A program made the position numbers and the translations under genes. The notes beneath the pieces were generated by a model. It made no database searches, was not told the DNA's origin, and saw nothing but the letters and a program-made list of their open reading frames with translations. From a virus (lineage: Duplodnaviria > Heunggongvirae > Uroviricota > Caudoviricetes), in IMG/VR virus record IMGVR_UViG_2526164631_000048, positions 1 to 41,666 of that record: a stretch of DNA of 41,666 nucleotides. One strand, written 5' to 3'. This document shows positions 5,297 through 26,506 of the stretch, piece by piece; within the stretch, counting starts at the first letter, position 1; every line of letters starts with the position of its first letter.

Positions 5297-5877
5297 TTGT
5301 CAGCTCCTTTGCGAATCTGTTCCGCCCATTCTTCAAGGGATTTCTCCGCATATTCACCGGACAGGCCATCAATCGGGTGCGGTTCATTAGCCAACTCTTC
5401 TTTCGCTGACAGAATCATGCGCGTAACGTCGAAAACTTCACGTAAAGACTTATTGATAAATCCGTGGTTGAAAGCAGCAGCAAGACGGCTTGCGGTATAG
5501 TTAATCCCCTCGTTGCGAGCCGCCGCACGAATTTCAGCCAAAAAAGCATCGGTGGCTGGGGTTTGCGGCATCTTTCCGTCTATTGCGCAGATATACGCAT
5601 CAGATAGCTCATCCTGCTCGCCATCAAACACGTAGCAACTCTGTGCGATAAATTTATTTAGCCCCGCATTCTCCGCCGCCAGCGCCGCGCACTTGGCCTC
5701 AAGGTTATCAATCGTGATTCCAGCAGAACGGCACTCCCGCAACGCCGTTTCTAGTTTTGATTCAAGTTCACCGAACTTACGCACCAGGTATTCAGCATCC
5801 GTTTCATTCACTTTCAGATCTTGCGGTACACATTTCCCGAGAAGAAACCATTCCATTTCGAAAACATTCATGCGCAT
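5293..5877 (-). CDS. Ead/Ea22-like protein (paralog)
   Basis: Shares the block CAALAAENAGLNKFIAQSCYVFDGEQDELSDAYICA with 4197..4889. Confidence 0.55.
   Translation of the reverse strand: MRMNVFEMEWFLLGKCVPQDLKVNETDAEYLVRKFGELESKLETALRECRSAGITIDNLEAKCAALAAENAGLNKFIAQSCYVFDGEQDELSDAYICAIDGKMPQTPATDAFLAEIRAAARNEGINYTASRLAAAFNHGFINKSLREVFDVTRMILSAKEELANEPHPIDGLSGEYAEKSLEEWAEQIRKGADK
5538..5697. repeat. Direct repeat copy B (~150 bp, near-identical to 4371..4518)
   Basis: Same sequence block as copy A, seen directly. Confidence 0.8.
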
Positions 5878-10357: not shown

Positions 10358-10631
10358 TTCTGCCATTCCGGGACGTTACACTGTTCAGGCACCTTATAAA
10401 GCGGGTGCCGGGATTGGCGTCCTGGAATTGATCAAGGCGATATATGACGCGCCAGCGTCTTTTTTATCGTCCGCATTTGCTCACATCAAAGTTATGGTGG
10501 GCTGGGCGGGGGCATCGAAAGATGCGCCGGTTTCCTTGATCACCGGTTACGCCAACCCCGTTCAGTTCACCACCAGCGAAATTGGCGTTTCCGGTGGTGG
10601 AAGTATTTCACCGATCAAGGAGGCTGCCATC

Positions 10632-15278: not shown

Positions 15279-16031
15279 ATGAACCTTGAAGCCTTACCAA
15301 AATATTACTCCCCAAAATCTCCAAAACTGAGCGATGACGCACCGGCGACAGGCTCGGGTGGTTTAACGATTACGGATGTGATGGCTGCGCAGGGGATGGT
15401 GCAGTCGAAAGCACCGCTTGGATTTGCCTTATTCCTGGCAAAAGTTGGTGTTCAGGATCCTCAGTTTGCGATTGAAGGTCTGCTCAATTACGCGATGGCA
15501 CTGGATAATCCGACATTGAATAAATTGAGTGAAGAAACCCGGTTACAGCTCATCCCTTACCTTGTGAATTTTGCCTTTGCTGATTATTCCAGGTCTGCGG
15601 CAAGTAAGGCTCGCTGTGAGCATTGTGCTGGTACTGGATTTCATAATGTATTGCGCGAAGTGGTGAAACACTCCAGAAGCGGGGAATCTGTTATCAAGGA
15701 AGAGTGGGTGAAGGAACTATGTCAGCATTGTCATGGTAAGGGAGAAGTCAGCACAGCGTGCAGAGGGTGTAAGGGTAAAGGTATTGTCCTGGATGAAAAA
15801 AGAACCCGGCTTCATGGCACGCCTGTTTATAAGATTTGTGGGCGTTGCAATGGAAACCGGTTTAGCCGTTTGCCAACCACACTGGCGCGGCATCATGTCC
15901 AGAAGCTGGTACCAGACCTGACGGATTATCAGTGGTACAAAGGATATGCAGATGTCATTGATAAACTGGTGACAAAGTGCTGGCAGGAAGAAGCATATGC
16001 TGAGGCGCAATTAAGAAAAGTGACGAGATAA
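15279..16031 (+). CDS. Late-gene antitermination protein Q
   Basis: 250 aa; Cys-rich zinc-binding motifs (CEHCAGTG, CQHCHGKG, CRGCKGKG, CGRCNG); placed just before lysis genes. Confidence 0.7.
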   Translation: MNLEALPKYYSPKSPKLSDDAPATGSGGLTITDVMAAQGMVQSKAPLGFALFLAKVGVQDPQFAIEGLLNYAMALDNPTLNKLSEETRLQLIPYLVNFAFADYSRSAASKARCEHCAGTGFHNVLREVVKHSRSGESVIKEEWVKELCQHCHGKGEVSTACRGCKGKGIVLDEKRTRLHGTPVYKICGRCNGNRFSRLPTTLARHHVQKLVPDLTDYQWYKGYADVIDKLVTKCWQEEAYAEAQLRKVTR

Positions 16032-16091: not shown

Positions 16092-16142
16092 TCTCCTAAC
16101 GATGGGCTTTGCATGTCTGCCGTTAACGAAATCATAACAAAC

Positions 16143-16164
16143 CTCGCTTCGGCGGGGTTTTTGC
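16143..16164 (+). terminator. Candidate tR' terminator (CUCGC-UUCG-GCGGG + U5)
   Basis: Hairpin with UUCG tetraloop and one G-U pair, then TTTTT. Confidence 0.5.
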
Positions 16165-16222
16165 TTTTCTGGAGGTCAATAATGCAGGGCGAAAAGCAGC
16201 AGCCATATTTTTTAACCCTGGT

Positions 16223-17786: not shown

Positions 17787-18244
17787 AGACGAGTTATTGG
17801 GCGCTCATTTTAACGTTTATTGCTTGTATTGCTGGTGGTCTTGTCTGGTCAGCTAATCATTACCACAATAAAGCCATTGAATACAAAAAACAGCGCGATG
17901 AAAACGCTATGGCATTAGATTCGGCTATGGCGACGATCTCTGATATGCAGAAGCGTCAACGTGACGTAGCAGAACTCGATGCCAGATATACAAAGGAGCT
18001 TGCTGATGCTAACGCCACTATCGAAAGTCTCCGTGCTGATGTTTCTGCTGGTCGTAAGCGCCTGCAAGTCTCCGCCACCTGTGCAAAGTCAACGACCGGA
18101 GCCAGCAGCATGGGCGATGGAGAAAGCCCAAGACTTACAGCAGATGCTGAACTCAATTATTACCGTCTCCGAAGTGGAATAGACAGGATAACCGCGCAGG
18201 TTAACTACCTGCAGGAGTACATCAGGGCTCAGTGCCTGAAATAA
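17783..18244 (+). CDS. Rz-like i-spanin
   Basis: 153 aa; N-terminal TM helix, coiled-coil periplasmic domain; follows endolysin; contains embedded ORF. Confidence 0.7.
   Translation: MKTSYWALILTFIACIAGGLVWSANHYHNKAIEYKKQRDENAMALDSAMATISDMQKRQRDVAELDARYTKELADANATIESLRADVSAGRKRLQVSATCAKSTTGASSMGDGESPRLTADAELNYYRLRSGIDRITAQVNYLQEYIRAQCLK
18006..18182 (+). CDS. Rz1-like o-spanin lipoprotein, embedded in Rz in another frame
   Basis: AAGGAG RBS 8 nt before ATG 18006; lipobox VVSAC; Pro-rich mature part. Confidence 0.6.
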   Translation: MLTPLSKVSVLMFLLVVSACKSPPPVQSQRPEPAAWAMEKAQDLQQMLNSIITVSEVE

Positions 18245-18276
18245 TTTTTTTGCAAATCACAAAGTCCATTTAATGA

Positions 18277-23971: not shown

Positions 23972-25201
23972 ATGAAACTGCATGAACTGAAACAGAAACG
24001 TAATACTATCGCAACTGACATGCGCGCCCTGAATGAAAAAATTGGTGATAACGCATGGACGGAAGAGCAGCGCACTGAGTGGAACAAAGCAAAATCCGAA
24101 CTGGAAGCGCTTGATGAACGAATTGCACGCGAAGAAGAACTGCGTCGTCAGGATCAGGCGTACATTGAAAGCAATGAGGAAGAGCAGCGTCAGAATCTTG
24201 ATCCGGAAAACAATTCGCAACAGGATGAGAAACGAGCTCAGGTTTTTGATAAGTGGATGCGTCACGGTGCCAGTGAGCTGACATCAGAAGAGCGAAAGGC
24301 GTTGCGTGAACTTCGTGCCCAGGGTGTAGCTCAGGATGAAAAGGGCGGATATACCGTACCAGAAACATTCCTGGCGAAAGTTGTTGAGAAGATGAAATCC
24401 TACGGTGGCATCGCCAGTGTGGCGCAGATTCTGACCACTTCTGACGGTCGCACCATGGAGTGGGCAACAGCTGATGGTACTTCCGAAGTTGGTGTTCTGC
24501 TGGGCGAAAATGAAGAAGCCGGTGAAGAAGACACCGATTTCGGTATGGGAAGTCTTGGGGCGCTCAAAATGACATCGAAAATCATTCGTGTGTCTAATGA
24601 GTTGCTGCAGGACAGCGCGATCGATATGGAAGCTTATCTTGCCCGTCGCATTGCTGAACGTATTGGTCGTGGTGAAGCCCGTTATCTGATTCAGGGGACT
24701 GGTGCTGGTACGCCTAAACAACCCAAAGGGCTGGCAGCATCAGTGACCGGCACAACACAGACTGCCGCGGCAAATGCGGTGAAGTGGCAGGAAATTCTGG
24801 CTCTGAAACACAGCATTGATCCTGCATATCGTCGCGGACCGAAATTCCGCCTGGCATTTAACGATAATACGCTGAAACTGATCAGTGAGATGGAAGACGG
24901 TCAGGGACGCCCTTTATGGTTGCCGGATATTGTTGGTGTGGCACCTGCTTCAGTGTTGAATGTACCTTATGTCATTGATCAGGAAATTGATGATATCGGG
25001 GCGGGTAAAAAATTCATGTTCTGTGGTGACTTTGATCGCTTCATTATCCGTCGTGTGCGATACATGATTCTTAAACGTCTGGTTGAGCGTTACGCGGAAT
25101 ATGATCAGACCGGTTTTCTGGCCTTCCATCGTTTTGACTGTATCCTGGAAGACACCTCTGCCATTAAAGCGCTGGTGGGGAAAGGTAGCGTTGGTGGTTG
25201 A
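23972..25201 (+). CDS. Major capsid protein (HK97 fold family)
   Basis: 409 aa; N-terminal coiled-coil delta-like domain then capsid body; followed by terminator. Confidence 0.8.
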   Translation: MKLHELKQKRNTIATDMRALNEKIGDNAWTEEQRTEWNKAKSELEALDERIAREEELRRQDQAYIESNEEEQRQNLDPENNSQQDEKRAQVFDKWMRHGASELTSEERKALRELRAQGVAQDEKGGYTVPETFLAKVVEKMKSYGGIASVAQILTTSDGRTMEWATADGTSEVGVLLGENEEAGEEDTDFGMGSLGALKMTSKIIRVSNELLQDSAIDMEAYLARRIAERIGRGEARYLIQGTGAGTPKQPKGLAASVTGTTQTAAANAVKWQEILALKHSIDPAYRRGPKFRLAFNDNTLKLISEMEDGQGRPLWLPDIVGVAPASVLNVPYVIDQEIDDIGAGKKFMFCGDFDRFIIRRVRYMILKRLVERYAEYDQTGFLAFHRFDCILEDTSAIKALVGKGSVGG

Positions 25202-25225
25202 TTAGTCTTTTTACGTAATACAGCA

Positions 25226-25247
25226 CGCCGCGTAATGCGGTTTTTTT
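25226..25247 (+). terminator. Weak terminator after capsid gene (short GC stem + T7), followed by an 8-bp hairpin 25248..25269
   Basis: ccgc-gtaat-gcgg then TTTTTTT; second perfect hairpin gtgcccgc/gcgggcac just before next RBS. Confidence 0.35.
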
Positions 25248-25279
25248 GTGCCCGCGTTCTGGCGGGCACAGGAGGTTTT

Positions 25280-25603
25280 ATGCTGTTAAAAATGGAAGAG
25301 ATTAAGCTTCAGCTTCGTCTGGATGATGATTTCTCTGATGAAGATGAGTTGCTTGAACTACTTGGGAAGGCCGCTCAGAGTCGGACGGAAAACTTCCTTA
25401 ACCGTACGTTGTATGCAACCGCAGATGACAGGCCTGCGGATGATCCTGATGGGCTTGTGATATCTGATGATGTGAAGCTGGCGCTCCTGCTACTTGTCAG
25501 CCATTTCTACGAAAACCGCTCAACGGTTACAGACGTTGAGAAAATGGAGTTGCCAATGAGCTTTAACTGGTTGGTTGCTCCTTATCGCCTTATACCACTA
25601 TGA
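25280..25603 (+). CDS. Head-tail connector (gp6-like)
   Basis: AGGAGG RBS; ~107 aa; position after capsid. Confidence 0.55.
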   Translation: MLLKMEEIKLQLRLDDDFSDEDELLELLGKAAQSRTENFLNRTLYATADDRPADDPDGLVISDDVKLALLLLVSHFYENRSTVTDVEKMELPMSFNWLVAPYRLIPL

Positions 25604-26010
25604 AAATTCGTCAGGCGCAGACCAGCGCAACCTACATTCTGCCTGACCCCGGCGAGCTGAATAAACGCGTCCTGATCCGCCAGCGGGTGGATATGCCCGC
25701 GGATAACTTTGGCGTGGAGCCTCAATACCCGGTTGTGTTCCGGGCATGGGCGAAGGTTATCCAGACCAGTGCCACCACCTGGCAGGAAACAGCGCAGATC
25801 GGAGATGCCATCACCCATTACATCACCATTCGCTACCGCCGGGGGATCACTGCTGATTATGAGGTGGTCTGTGATGACAGTGTGTACCGGGTGAAACGTC
25901 AGCGTGATCTGAACGGGGCGCGGCGCTTTCTGCTGCTGGAGTGTACGGAACTGGGTGCCGAAGAACAAATGGGAGGACGCAGTGGAGCAGACAGCATTTT
26001 TACACGTTGA
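25600..26010 (+). CDS. Head closure / head-tail adaptor protein
   Basis: 136 aa; position in head-tail joining block. Confidence 0.45.
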   Translation: MKIRQAQTSATYILPDPGELNKRVLIRQRVDMPADNFGVEPQYPVVFRAWAKVIQTSATTWQETAQIGDAITHYITIRYRRGITADYEVVCDDSVYRVKRQRDLNGARRFLLLECTELGAEEQMGGRSGADSIFTR

Positions 26011-26506
26011 TTTCAAACAACCGGAGGAGATGGAGTTTAATCGTGCCAGGCTCCGAAAGGCATTTGTTCAAATCGGGCGTGTCTATATGCGTGATGCCCG
26101 GCGGCTGGTGATGCGGCGTGGTCGGTCTGCTCCAGGTGAAAACCCCGGCTATCAGACCGGACGACTTGCGCGTTCTATAGGTTATTACGTCCCCCGTAAA
26201 AGCTCCCGTCGTTCTGGCCTGATGGTCAGGATTTCCCCTAACCAGAAAAACGGGCAGGGTAACCGGCGTTTTCCTGAAGGTTCTGCGTATTATCCGGCGT
26301 TTCTGTATTACGGTGTGCGTTATGCCGCATACGGGATGAGCAAAAAGGATAAGCGCCAGAAAAAGCAGCATTCATCCCGCTGGCGGCTGGCACCACGTAA
26401 TAACTTTATGGCTGATGTCATCGACCAGCGTCGTTACTGGACACAAAAGTTACTGTCCCGTGAGTTACAGCGGTCATTACGTCCTGTAAGAAGGAAAAAA
26501 ACATGA
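25955..26506 (+). CDS. HK97 gp10-like neck/tail component (start uncertain, possibly GTG 25982)
   Basis: Basic ~175 aa protein overlapping the previous gene. Confidence 0.45.
   Translation: MPKNKWEDAVEQTAFLHVDFKQPEEMEFNRARLRKAFVQIGRVYMRDARRLVMRRGRSAPGENPGYQTGRLARSIGYYVPRKSSRRSGLMVRISPNQKNGQGNRRFPEGSAYYPAFLYYGVRYAAYGMSKKDKRQKKQHSSRWRLAPRNNFMADVIDQRRYWTQKLLSRELQRSLRPVRRKKT

What the first reader, a model, noticed from the sequence alone, without database searches (positions are those of the whole stretch)
25226..25269. Weak terminator plus strong hairpin in the leader of the connector gene
After the major capsid gene there is a short GC stem with T7, then an 8-bp perfect hairpin (gtgcccgc/gcgggcac) that ends right at the AGGAGG RBS of the next gene. 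This could set the ratio of capsid to downstream head-completion transcripts, or modulate translation initiation.
Basis: seen in the sequence. Interest (0 to 1): 0.2.

Follow-up and report, generated by a model that had tools for sequence, protein, structure and literature searches.

The report
Conserved terminator-plus-hairpin after capsid gene
The 78-base gap between the major capsid gene and the head-tail connector gene of this SfV-like prophage holds a small terminator followed at once by a strong RNA hairpin that touches the connector's ribosome-binding site; many related phages keep this two-part element, but it is an ordinary kind of intra-operon signal that most likely lowers expression of genes downstream of the capsid gene.

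Summary
The major capsid gene stops at 25201. After it come a 5-pair stem (25227-25241, about -7 kcal/mol) with a T7 run (25241-25247), then a perfect 8-bp GC-rich hairpin (25248-25269, -17 kcal/mol), then AGGAGG (25270-25275) and the connector ATG (25280).

The window is 98.6% identical to phage SfV. The SfV GenBank record already marks a "putative rho-independent terminator" here, but places it on the second hairpin.

- **Conservation:** 113 of 153 loci found through connector-protein homology carry the same two-part element, in 36 distinct versions.
- **What stays fixed:** the T-run is T7 in 33 of 36 versions and T8 in the rest. Hairpin 2 is 98% paired.
- **What varies:** the hairpin 2 loop varies freely. 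Its stem changes almost only to G·U, plus one compensatory G-C to A-U pair.
- **Second hairpin:** the U-rich tail after it is not conserved. So hairpin 1 plus T7 is the real terminator, and hairpin 2 is a separate sense-strand RNA stem.
- **Mosaic joint:** the element sits at a recombination joint between head and neck modules.
- **Antitermination:** a Q antiterminator lies upstream, so processing, stability or ribosome-site masking may matter as much as termination.

No experiment was possible. This is a member of a known kind, of low to moderate interest.

The parts
23972..25201 (+). Major capsid protein gene (HK97-type), the upstream cistron
   Evidence: ORF; Pfam Phage_capsid PF05065, E 7e-65; annotated as capsid in SfV and in RefSeq E. 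coli genomes.
25227..25241 (+). Hairpin 1: short stem GCCGC/GCGGU (4 G-C pairs plus G.U), loop GUAAU. This is the hairpin of the intrinsic terminator.
   Evidence: -7.5 kcal/mol. Kept in relatives with varied loops (GUAA, GAAA, UUCG and others) and alternative stems (ACCGCG/CGCGGU, CACCGC/GCGGU).
25241..25247 (+). T7 run (U-tract) directly between the two hairpins
   Evidence: T7 in 33 and T8 in 3 of 36 distinct variants. These alignment columns are invariant.
25248..25269 (+). Hairpin 2: perfect 8-bp stem GUGCCCGC/GCGGGCAC, loop GUUCUG
   Evidence: -17.1 kcal/mol. 98.2% of cells paired across 34 distinct variants, with one compensatory pair and five pairs that change only to G.U. SfV GenBank annotates 5547-5584 (window 25247-25284) as a putative rho-independent terminator.
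25270..25275 (+). Shine-Dalgarno sequence AGGAGG of the connector gene, abutting hairpin 2. It can pair with U25242-25247 to extend hairpin 2 to 14 pairs.
   Evidence: extended stem -22.8 kcal/mol, z -5.7. The SD lies 0-1 nt after hairpin 2 in all 34 aligned variants.
25280..25603 (+). Head-tail connector (gp6-like adaptor) gene, the downstream cistron
   Evidence: Pfam Phage_connect_1 PF05135, E 2.7e-11. RefSeq annotates the same 324-nt gene. The longer ORF from ATG 25235, used in the SKA5 record, starts inside the hairpin 1 loop, and that ATG is absent in most relatives.
15279..16031 (+). Q-type antiterminator gene upstream of the lysis and head genes. It is context that bears on how the terminator behaves.
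   Evidence: Pfam Antiterm PF03589, E 1.1e-53. Followed on the same strand by holins, endolysin, Rz, HNH and the small terminase.

Best explanation
This is a two-part intercistronic RNA element of the late operon. It lowers expression of the connector and later genes relative to the major capsid gene.

**Part 1: hairpin 1 plus U7.** This is a weak intrinsic terminator. It ends a fraction of transcripts right after the capsid cistron. It is most effective on RNA polymerase that is not Q-modified.

**Part 2: hairpin 2.** This is a stable stem in the sense-strand mRNA of read-through transcripts. It is not a canonical terminator. I infer that it acts after transcription in up to three ways:
1. 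It forms a strong barrier to 3'-to-5' exonucleases, which would prolong the life of the upstream capsid message.
2. It leaves the U7 stretch single-stranded between two stems, a likely RNase E or Hfq site.
3. It brings the U-tract alongside the Shine-Dalgarno sequence, so that weak U-A and U.G pairs partly mask the connector's ribosome-binding site.

**Shown here:** the structures, their conservation, their position, and the presence of Q.

**Inferred, not shown:** termination, processing and masking.
For: - **Anatomy and folding:**
- **Prevalence:** 113 of 153 loci found through connector-protein homology carry the tandem element, in 36 distinct versions.
- **Invariant T-run:** it is T7 or T8 in every version and always lies directly between the stems.
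- **Hairpin 2 substitution pattern:** 98.2% of cells are paired. The loop varies freely in sequence and in length (5-8 nt). Five stem pairs change only to G.U or U.G. One pair switches G-C to A-U in 6 sequences. G.U pairs would be C.A mismatches on the other strand, so the selected structure lies in the sense transcript.
- **Hairpin 2 energy:** stability is kept (mean -16.2 kcal/mol, range -19.3 to -12.8), whereas hairpin 1 is weak (mean -7.2).
- **No conserved tail after hairpin 2:** the sequence after the SD is often not U-rich (AAAATATG, AAAGCTATG), so hairpin 2 is not a conserved canonical terminator.
- **A recurring position:** more distant relatives have a single canonical terminator or a strong hairpin in the same place: YeP1, Vibrio phages K396 and K303, SfII, and loci L218-L222 and L250-L273.
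- **Element kept across module swaps:** window vs L003 shows capsid 68.6% and connector 100% identity. L003 vs L282 shows capsid 99.8% and connector 48.6%.
- **Predicted SD accessibility:** the mean unpaired probability is 0.18 with the U-tract present and 0.45 for an RNA that starts at hairpin 2.
- **Literature:** a terminator at the end of the procapsid module inside a lambdoid late operon is reported for phage L, with partial termination offered as a possible role (PMC8022706). Weak terminators that balance expression are documented in other phages (PMC9163698).
Against: - **No transcript data:** there are no 3'-end or expression data for this phage or any relative.
- **Hairpin 1 is weak:** it is not significant by energy (z -0.8), and it is degraded in three variants (L076, L237, L241).
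- **Q is present:** the phage has a Q antiterminator upstream. From established knowledge of lambdoid Q proteins, this should let polymerase ignore such a terminator during lytic growth.
- **Weak covariation statistics:** only one pair changes on both sides, and the count of pairs with a change on both sides and of pair types is no better than in shuffles.
- **SD masking may be a by-product:** the nucleotide between hairpin 2 and the SD cannot pair in 13 of 34 variants, and U pairs with any purine.
- **The SD abutting hairpin 2 may be economy of space:** in relatives with a single terminator, the SD also follows the T-run within about 3 nt.
Confidence: 0.6

Rival explanations
1. Tandem terminators: both hairpins are intrinsic terminators. 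The second uses the extended stem (U6 paired with AGGAGG) followed by UUUU as its tail, which is what the SfV GenBank annotation implies.
For: The scan reports a 14-pair stem at 25242-25275 followed by TTTTATGCTG. SfV annotates 5547-5584 as a putative rho-independent terminator. In the unrelated loci L126 and L202, the GTGCCCGC hairpin is followed by a T-rich run.
Against: The T-rich spacer after the SD is not conserved (AAAATATG, AAAGCTATG, ATAACTCATG and others). Without the weak U-purine extension, the U's lie 6 nt from the stem. The T7 after hairpin 1, by contrast, is invariant.
Confidence: 0.12
2. Hairpin 2 is chiefly a translational operator for the connector gene. It clamps the U-tract onto the SD (a fourU-like, possibly temperature-sensitive mask), or it is bound by a phage protein that represses connector synthesis.
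For: The SD abuts hairpin 2 in all 34 variants. The extended stem is -22.8 kcal/mol with z -5.7. Predicted SD accessibility is 0.18 with the U-tract and 0.45 without it. The connector has a stronger SD (AGGAGG) than the capsid gene (AGGA), although from general knowledge of HK97-type heads it is needed in far fewer copies.
Against: Pairing of a U-run with a purine-rich SD is automatic. Position 55 of the alignment breaks the helix in 13 of 34 variants. The loop, the usual target of protein recognition, is not conserved. Relatives with a single terminator also have the SD immediately after the T-run.
Confidence: 0.15
3. The element is kept mainly as a recombination linker: a short shared sequence at the head/neck module boundary that promotes, or merely survives, mosaic exchange. 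It would have little regulatory role.
For: Recombination joints fall inside or next to the element. Window vs L003: capsid 68.6%, connector 100% identity. L003 vs L282: capsid 99.8%, connector 48.6%. In the phiP27-like loci, the C-terminus of the upstream ORF is 33% identical to the window's capsid protein, yet the element matches at 41 of 47 positions.
Against: A neutral linker should take substitutions in stems as freely as in loops. Here the loops are free, while the stems change almost only to G.U or by compensation. The T-run length is fixed. Joints at gene boundaries are expected anyway, because only such recombinants are viable.
Confidence: 0.08
4. Chance or generic feature: an ordinary terminator with an incidental GC palindrome and no separate function for hairpin 2.
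For: About 0.7 perfect 8-bp GC-rich hairpins are expected per shuffled window. The consensus scan finds no excess of terminator-like sites in the 10 kb around the gap (13 found, 9.2 +/- 3.5 expected).
Against: Hairpin 2 is kept in 36 distinct variants from several enterobacterial genera while flanks and loops diverge. The covariance model gives a single strong hit per genome.
Confidence: 0.05

Closest known systems
Putative rho-independent terminator annotated in phage SfV (GenBank U82619.2 / NC_003444, 5547-5584)
   Same: It is the same locus and the same sequence: the window's gap is identical to SfV's. It lies after the capsid gene orf5 and before orf6.
   Different: The annotation covers hairpin 2 plus the SD and start codon. 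Comparative data here point instead to hairpin 1 plus T7 as the canonical terminator and to hairpin 2 as a separate conserved stem. I could not read the SfV paper.
Intra-late-operon terminators after the procapsid or capsid module in lambdoid phages (phage L / P22 group; PMC8022706)
   Same: A predicted intrinsic terminator lies inside a single-promoter, antiterminated late operon at the end of the head-shell genes. The role is unproven; partial termination or stopping non-antiterminated transcription has been proposed.
   Different: The head genes are a different type (P22-like versus HK97-like). No second SD-abutting hairpin is described there.
T7 T-phi and other weak phage terminators that balance late gene dosage
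   Same: A leaky terminator just after the major capsid gene lowers transcription of the next structural genes. This rests on my own knowledge for T-phi; the general point is in PMC9163698.
   Different: T7 uses its own RNA polymerase and a single large hairpin. Here the host polymerase is used, probably Q-modified, and the architecture has two stems.
Intercistronic stem-loops that set differential mRNA stability (REP in malE-malF, the puf operon) and synthetic tunable intergenic regions (two hairpins flanking an RNase E site next to an RBS)
   Same: Two hairpins flank an A/U-rich single-stranded stretch between a highly expressed and a weakly expressed cistron, with the second hairpin adjacent to the RBS. 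This is a resemblance recalled from my own knowledge.
   Different: No processing has been shown here. The sequence is not a REP element. The resemblance is architectural only.
FourU RNA thermometers
   Same: A run of U's pairs with the SD through U-A and U.G pairs at the labile end of a hairpin (my own knowledge; pairing predicted).
   Different: Here the U-run is also the terminator tail. Helix continuity is broken in 13 of 34 variants. There are no temperature data. No Rfam family matches.

Membership tests
Intrinsic (rho-independent) terminator: hairpin 1 plus T7 | G+C-rich stem-loop immediately followed by a U-tract of about 7-8 nt on the transcribed strand | tested here: met
   GCCGC-GUAAU-GCGGU followed by U7. 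The stem is short (5 pairs, -7.5 kcal/mol), so the terminator is weak by this criterion.
Intrinsic (rho-independent) terminator: hairpin 1 plus T7 | Location downstream of a stop codon, in the direction of transcription | tested here: met
   It begins 26 nt after the capsid stop, on the same strand as all flanking late genes.
Intrinsic (rho-independent) terminator: hairpin 1 plus T7 | Stem and U-tract conserved in relatives while the loop and flanks vary | tested here: met
   The T-run is T7 or T8 in all 36 variants. Stem cells are 98.8% paired. Loops include GUAA, GAAA, UUCG and GUAAU, and alternative stems exist. The stem is degraded in 3 variants.
Intrinsic (rho-independent) terminator: hairpin 1 plus T7 | Transcripts actually end at the U-tract | not testable with these tools
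   Needs Term-seq, 3' RACE or in vitro transcription.
Intrinsic terminator: hairpin 2 (as annotated in SfV) | U-tract immediately after the stem | tested here: not met
   The 8-bp stem is followed by AGGAGG. U's come 6 nt later, and only in some variants; others have AAAAUAUG or AAAGCUAUG. The feature is met only if the weak U-purine extension is counted as stem.
Structured cis-regulatory RNA (conserved mRNA hairpin): hairpin 2 | Base pairing maintained across diverged homologues, with compensatory or wobble changes specific to one strand | tested here: met
   98.2% of cells are paired. One pair changes G-C to A-U in 6 sequences, and 5 pairs vary only to G.U. Statistical support is modest: cells with a change on both sides reach the observed value in 7 of 500 shuffles, but the count of pairs with a change on both sides is no better than in shuffles.
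Structured cis-regulatory RNA (conserved mRNA hairpin): hairpin 2 | Membership of a curated RNA family | tested here: not met
   No Rfam 15 match at the gathering threshold in the window. Nothing better than E=1.3 in 25150-25350.
SD-sequestering translational element (including fourU type) | SD paired in the most stable structure of the mRNA | tested here: inconclusive
   The MFE and centroid structures pair U25242-25247 with AGGAGG. Mean SD unpaired probability is 0.18, against 0.45 without the U-tract. The pairing is weak, is an automatic result of composition, and is interrupted in 13 of 34 variants.
REP / mobile palindromic element | Multiple dispersed copies per genome | tested here: not met
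   One strong covariance-model hit per genome, always at the capsid-connector gap. In IMG/VR, a pattern search for the T-run plus hairpin 2 landed in that gap for most of the 55 distinct contexts, with 7 outlier contexts.

The most novel reading that the evidence does not exclude
The H1-U7-H2-SD unit may be a distinct, portable "post-capsid" RNA module of HK97-type head operons in enterobacterial phages and beyond.

- **Proposed action:** it would work as a natural two-hairpin intergenic valve, combining partial termination, RNase E/Hfq-dependent processing at the exposed U7, protection of the capsid message by hairpin 2, and U-tract masking of the connector SD (possibly temperature-sensitive).
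- **Proposed purpose:** it would keep working even when Q antitermination overrides the terminator. It may also serve as the preferred joint at which head and neck/tail modules are exchanged between myo- and siphoviruses.
- **Supporting hint:** the same T-run plus GTGCCCGC hairpin follows a capsid-like gene in an unrelated phage type (L126, L206).
Probability: 0.2. Interest if true: 0.45.

Novelty: new member of a known kind. Interest (0 to 1): 0.22.

Why it matters
If the element works as inferred, it is one of the devices by which a phage with a single long late transcript makes hundreds of capsid subunits but only about a dozen connector subunits per virion.

The roles of terminators inside antiterminated late operons are still described as unknown (PMC8022706). 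The two-part form is shared by many prophages of E. coli and Shigella and by relatives in Klebsiella, Mixta and Buttiauxella. That makes the question easy to test with one set of mutants.

There are also practical corrections to annotation:
- The SfV terminator feature is probably placed on the wrong hairpin.
- Two phage records start the connector gene inside the element.

The finding does not challenge any current view.

Tried and rejected
- **Rfam:** the gathering scan of the whole window and a permissive scan of 25150-25350 gave no family for the element. A 12-bit isrK-like match only reflects the terminator shape.
- **SfV paper:** I tried to read Allison et al. 2002 by DOI and by a guessed PMC id; it is not held.
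- **Literature searches:** no transcript data turned up for SfV-type phages. The phiCbK paper was irrelevant.
- **Longer connector ORF:** the ORF from ATG 25235, used in the SKA5 record, is rejected. That ATG lies in the hairpin 1 loop, has no SD, and is absent in most variants.
- **Minus-strand terminator:** rejected, because both hairpins are followed by A-runs or non-U sequence on that strand.
- **DNA palindrome or protein operator:** disfavoured, because stem changes are G.U on the plus strand only, which are C.A on the other strand, and the loop length varies.
- **REP-like repeat:** rejected, with one copy per genome.
- **Hairpin after the sheath gene:** the GC hairpin at 28760-28782 lies inside the next ORF and was not pursued.
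- **Genome-contig scan:** the connector alignment returned only 7 loci.
- **Hairpin 1 alignment artefact:** MAFFT shifts the L007 row by two columns, which the pair count scores as unpaired.

Full report
**1. What is there**

The window is an SfV-like prophage. The segment 24700-25700 is 98.6% identical to Shigella phage SfV and 99.3% identical to Escherichia phage SKA5. Window coordinate equals SfV coordinate plus 19700.

The HK97-type major capsid gene (23972-25201; Pfam Phage_capsid, E 7e-65) is followed by a 78-nt gap. Then comes a gp6-like head-tail connector gene (ATG 25280 to 25603; Phage_connect_1, E 2.7e-11).

The gap reads as follows:

| Feature | Sequence | Coordinates |
|---|---|---|
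| Hairpin 1 (H1) | GCCGC-GUAAU-GCGGU | 25227-25241 |
| T-run | T7 | 25241-25247 |
| Hairpin 2 (H2) | GUGCCCGC-GUUCUG-GCGGGCAC | 25248-25269 |
| Shine-Dalgarno | AGGAGG | 25270-25275 |
| Spacer | UUUU | 25276-25279 |
| Start codon | AUG | 25280 |

**2. Is it more than chance?**

- H2 folds at -17.1 kcal/mol. Its z-score is -4.2, and none of 200 shuffles folds as well.
- The whole gap has z -4.2.
- H1 alone is unremarkable by energy: -7.5 kcal/mol, z -0.8.
- Perfect 8-bp GC-rich hairpins occur at 3 places in the window, against 0.7 +/- 1.1 in shuffles.
- The consensus scan shows no excess of terminator-like sites.

Sequence statistics alone are therefore weak. Position and conservation carry the argument.

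**3. Already annotated**

The SfV GenBank record marks 5547-5584 as a "putative rho-independent terminator". That range equals window 25247-25284, which is H2 plus the SD and the start codon. The SfV gap is identical to the window's. I could not read the SfV paper.

**4. Conservation**

I collected loci through connector-protein homology only, from three sources: IMG/VR queried with three different connectors, the one-genome-per-species GTDB collection, and annotated phage and E. coli records.

- 113 of 153 loci carry the same tandem element, in 36 distinct versions.
- Hosts named in the records include E. coli and Shigella, Mixta, Buttiauxella and Klebsiella.
- The element is also in the Stx phage phiP27.
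- In the alignment of 34 versions, the T-run columns are invariant. The run is T7 in 33 of 36 versions and T8 in 3.
- The sequence upstream of H1 cannot be aligned.
- The H2 loop varies in sequence and in length, from 5 to 8 nt.
- The SD always begins 0-1 nt after H2.

Pair counts:

| Helix | Cells paired | How the pairs vary |
|---|---|---|
| H1 | 98.8% | Two pairs vary on one side only |
| H2 | 98.2% | One pair switches G-C to A-U in 6 sequences, with G.U intermediates; five pairs vary only to G.U or U.G; the few mismatches lie in the two pairs at the stem base |

All wobble changes are compatible with pairing in the plus-strand transcript. On the other strand they would be C.A mismatches. 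That argues for an RNA structure in the late mRNA rather than a DNA palindrome.

Formal covariation support is modest. Cells with a change on both sides reach the observed value in 7 of 500 shuffles. The number of pairs with a change on both sides is no better than in shuffles.

H2 stability is maintained (mean -16.2 kcal/mol, range -19.3 to -12.8). H1 is always weak (mean -7.2) and is degraded in three versions.

A covariance model built from the alignment finds one copy in the window at 83 bits. The next best hit is 20 bits. No Rfam family matches.

**5. Which hairpin is the terminator?**

The U-tract directly after H1 is invariant. The T-rich spacer after H2 and the SD is not conserved: many versions have AAAAUAUG, AAAGCUAUG or AUAACUCAUG.

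H2 can look like a terminator only if the weak pairing of U25242-25247 with AGGAGG is counted as stem. I conclude that H1 plus U7 is the canonical, weak intrinsic terminator. H2 is a separate element, so the SfV feature is probably placed on the wrong hairpin.

**6. Wider context**

More distant relatives have a single canonical terminator or a strong hairpin in the same place:

- ACCCGC-UUCG-GCGGGU plus U6 in L218-L222.
- ACGCCC-UCCG-GGGCGU plus U6 in L250-L273.
- Canonical terminators in Yersinia phage YeP1 and Vibrio phages K396 and K303.
- A strong hairpin after the SfII capsid gene.

A signal directly after the capsid gene is thus a general feature of this head-gene family. The tandem form is one widespread version.

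A predicted terminator at the end of the procapsid module, inside a single-promoter late operon, is also reported for the P22-like phage L. Its role is stated there as unknown, and partial termination or stopping non-antiterminated transcription is suggested (PMC8022706). Weak terminators that balance phage gene expression are documented elsewhere (PMC9163698).

**7. Antitermination**

The window encodes a Q-type antiterminator (15279-16031; Pfam Antiterm, E 1e-53). It is followed on the same strand by holins, endolysin, Rz, HNH, the terminase subunits, portal, protease and capsid.

From established knowledge of lambdoid Q proteins, Q-loaded polymerase reads through intrinsic terminators. During lytic growth, H1 may therefore terminate little. 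This raises the weight of post-transcriptional roles for the element.

**8. Mechanism (inferred)**

H1 plus U7 ends some transcripts after the capsid cistron, most effectively for unmodified polymerase. On read-through RNA, H2 forms a stable stem with three possible effects:

1. It blocks 3'-to-5' exonucleases and so favours survival of the capsid segment.
2. It leaves U7 single-stranded between two stems. Such a context is typical of RNase E cleavage and Hfq binding sites (my own knowledge).
3. It stacks the U-tract against the SD.

Folding predicts the 14-pair extended stem at -22.8 kcal/mol, z -5.7. It also predicts lower SD accessibility when the U-tract is present: a mean unpaired probability of 0.18, against 0.45 for an RNA that starts at H2, across 36 versions.

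This masking follows largely from U pairing with any purine. The helix is also interrupted in 13 of 34 versions. I therefore treat it as possible, not shown.

The connector's SD (AGGAGG) is stronger than the capsid gene's (AGGA), although the connector is needed in far fewer copies. That fits some restraint on its use.

**9. Mosaic joint**

Recombination joints fall in or beside the element:

| Comparison | Capsid identity | Connector identity |
|---|---|---|
| Window vs E. coli AZ146 (L003) | 68.6% | 100% |
| L003 vs siphovirus vB_EcoS-689R5 (L282) | 99.8% | 48.6% |

The L003 and L282 sequences are identical through H2 and diverge right after it. In the phiP27-type loci, the C-terminus of the upstream ORF is only 33% identical to the window's capsid protein, yet the element matches at 41 of 47 positions.

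The element therefore stays in place whatever lies on either side. A purely neutral "linker" reading is disfavoured by the substitution pattern in the stems.

**10. Verdict**

The feature belongs to a known kind (an intra-operon terminator or intercistronic stem-loop after the capsid gene), and GenBank already flags a terminator here for SfV.

The modest new points are these:
- The two-part architecture is conserved.
- H1, not H2, is the canonical terminator.
- H2 is a conserved sense-strand RNA stem abutting the SD.
- The element marks a head/neck recombination joint.

Interest is low to moderate.

Noticed in passing
L004 (E. coli strain 98221, NZ_CP173484.1) 1150-2510, corresponding to window 25244-25245: An IS110-family insertion sequence (transposase WP_167787904.1) sits exactly in the T-run between hairpin 1 and hairpin 2. 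It splits the element (GCGGTTTT | IS | ATTTTGTGCCCGC).
   Followed up: partly
L126 7719-7790 and L206 (IMG/VR contigs 3300015262_000033 and a relative): A GC-rich phage with a different head type carries a terminator hairpin plus T6 followed at once by a GTGCCCGC...GCGGGC hairpin. It lies just after a capsid-like gene (weak, sub-threshold Major_capside match, preceded by a cement protein). It may be convergence, transfer or chance, because it was found by a pattern search.
   Followed up: partly
window 10389-10577 (+): Rfam matches above the gathering threshold to isrK (64 bits) and C4 antisense RNA (82 bits), side by side. This indicates a P1/P7-type c4-antirepressor immunity module in this prophage.
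   Followed up: no
window 25235 (SKA5 record OR670062.1) and L282 1756 (vB_EcoS-689R5, ON470583.1): Two phage records start the connector gene inside the element: at the ATG in the hairpin 1 loop, and at the ATG of the ATGCCCGC arm of hairpin 2. These are probably mis-called starts. RefSeq E. coli annotations use the ATG after the SD.
   Followed up: yes
window 25955-26506 overlapping 25600-26010: The ORF after the head-closure gene (183 aa from GTG 25955) has no Pfam match, and its listed start overlaps the preceding gene by 56 nt. SfV and RefSeq annotate shorter versions of this ORF (297 and 507 nt), so the start is uncertain.
   Followed up: no
window 18220-18251 and 16136-16184 (+): Other terminator-like sites lie on the late strand: a T7 run just after the Rz gene (18245-18251), and a weak covariance-model hit (12.7 bits) between Q and the holin that could be the late-promoter terminator region.
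   Followed up: no
L286 (SfII) 2248-2298; L079-L086, L091-L093: SfII/ST64B-type relatives lack the tandem element. They have a strong hairpin (GGGGCGCGG-AACC-CCGCGCCCC) after the capsid gene, then an extra small ORF that ends at the connector start.
   Followed up: partly
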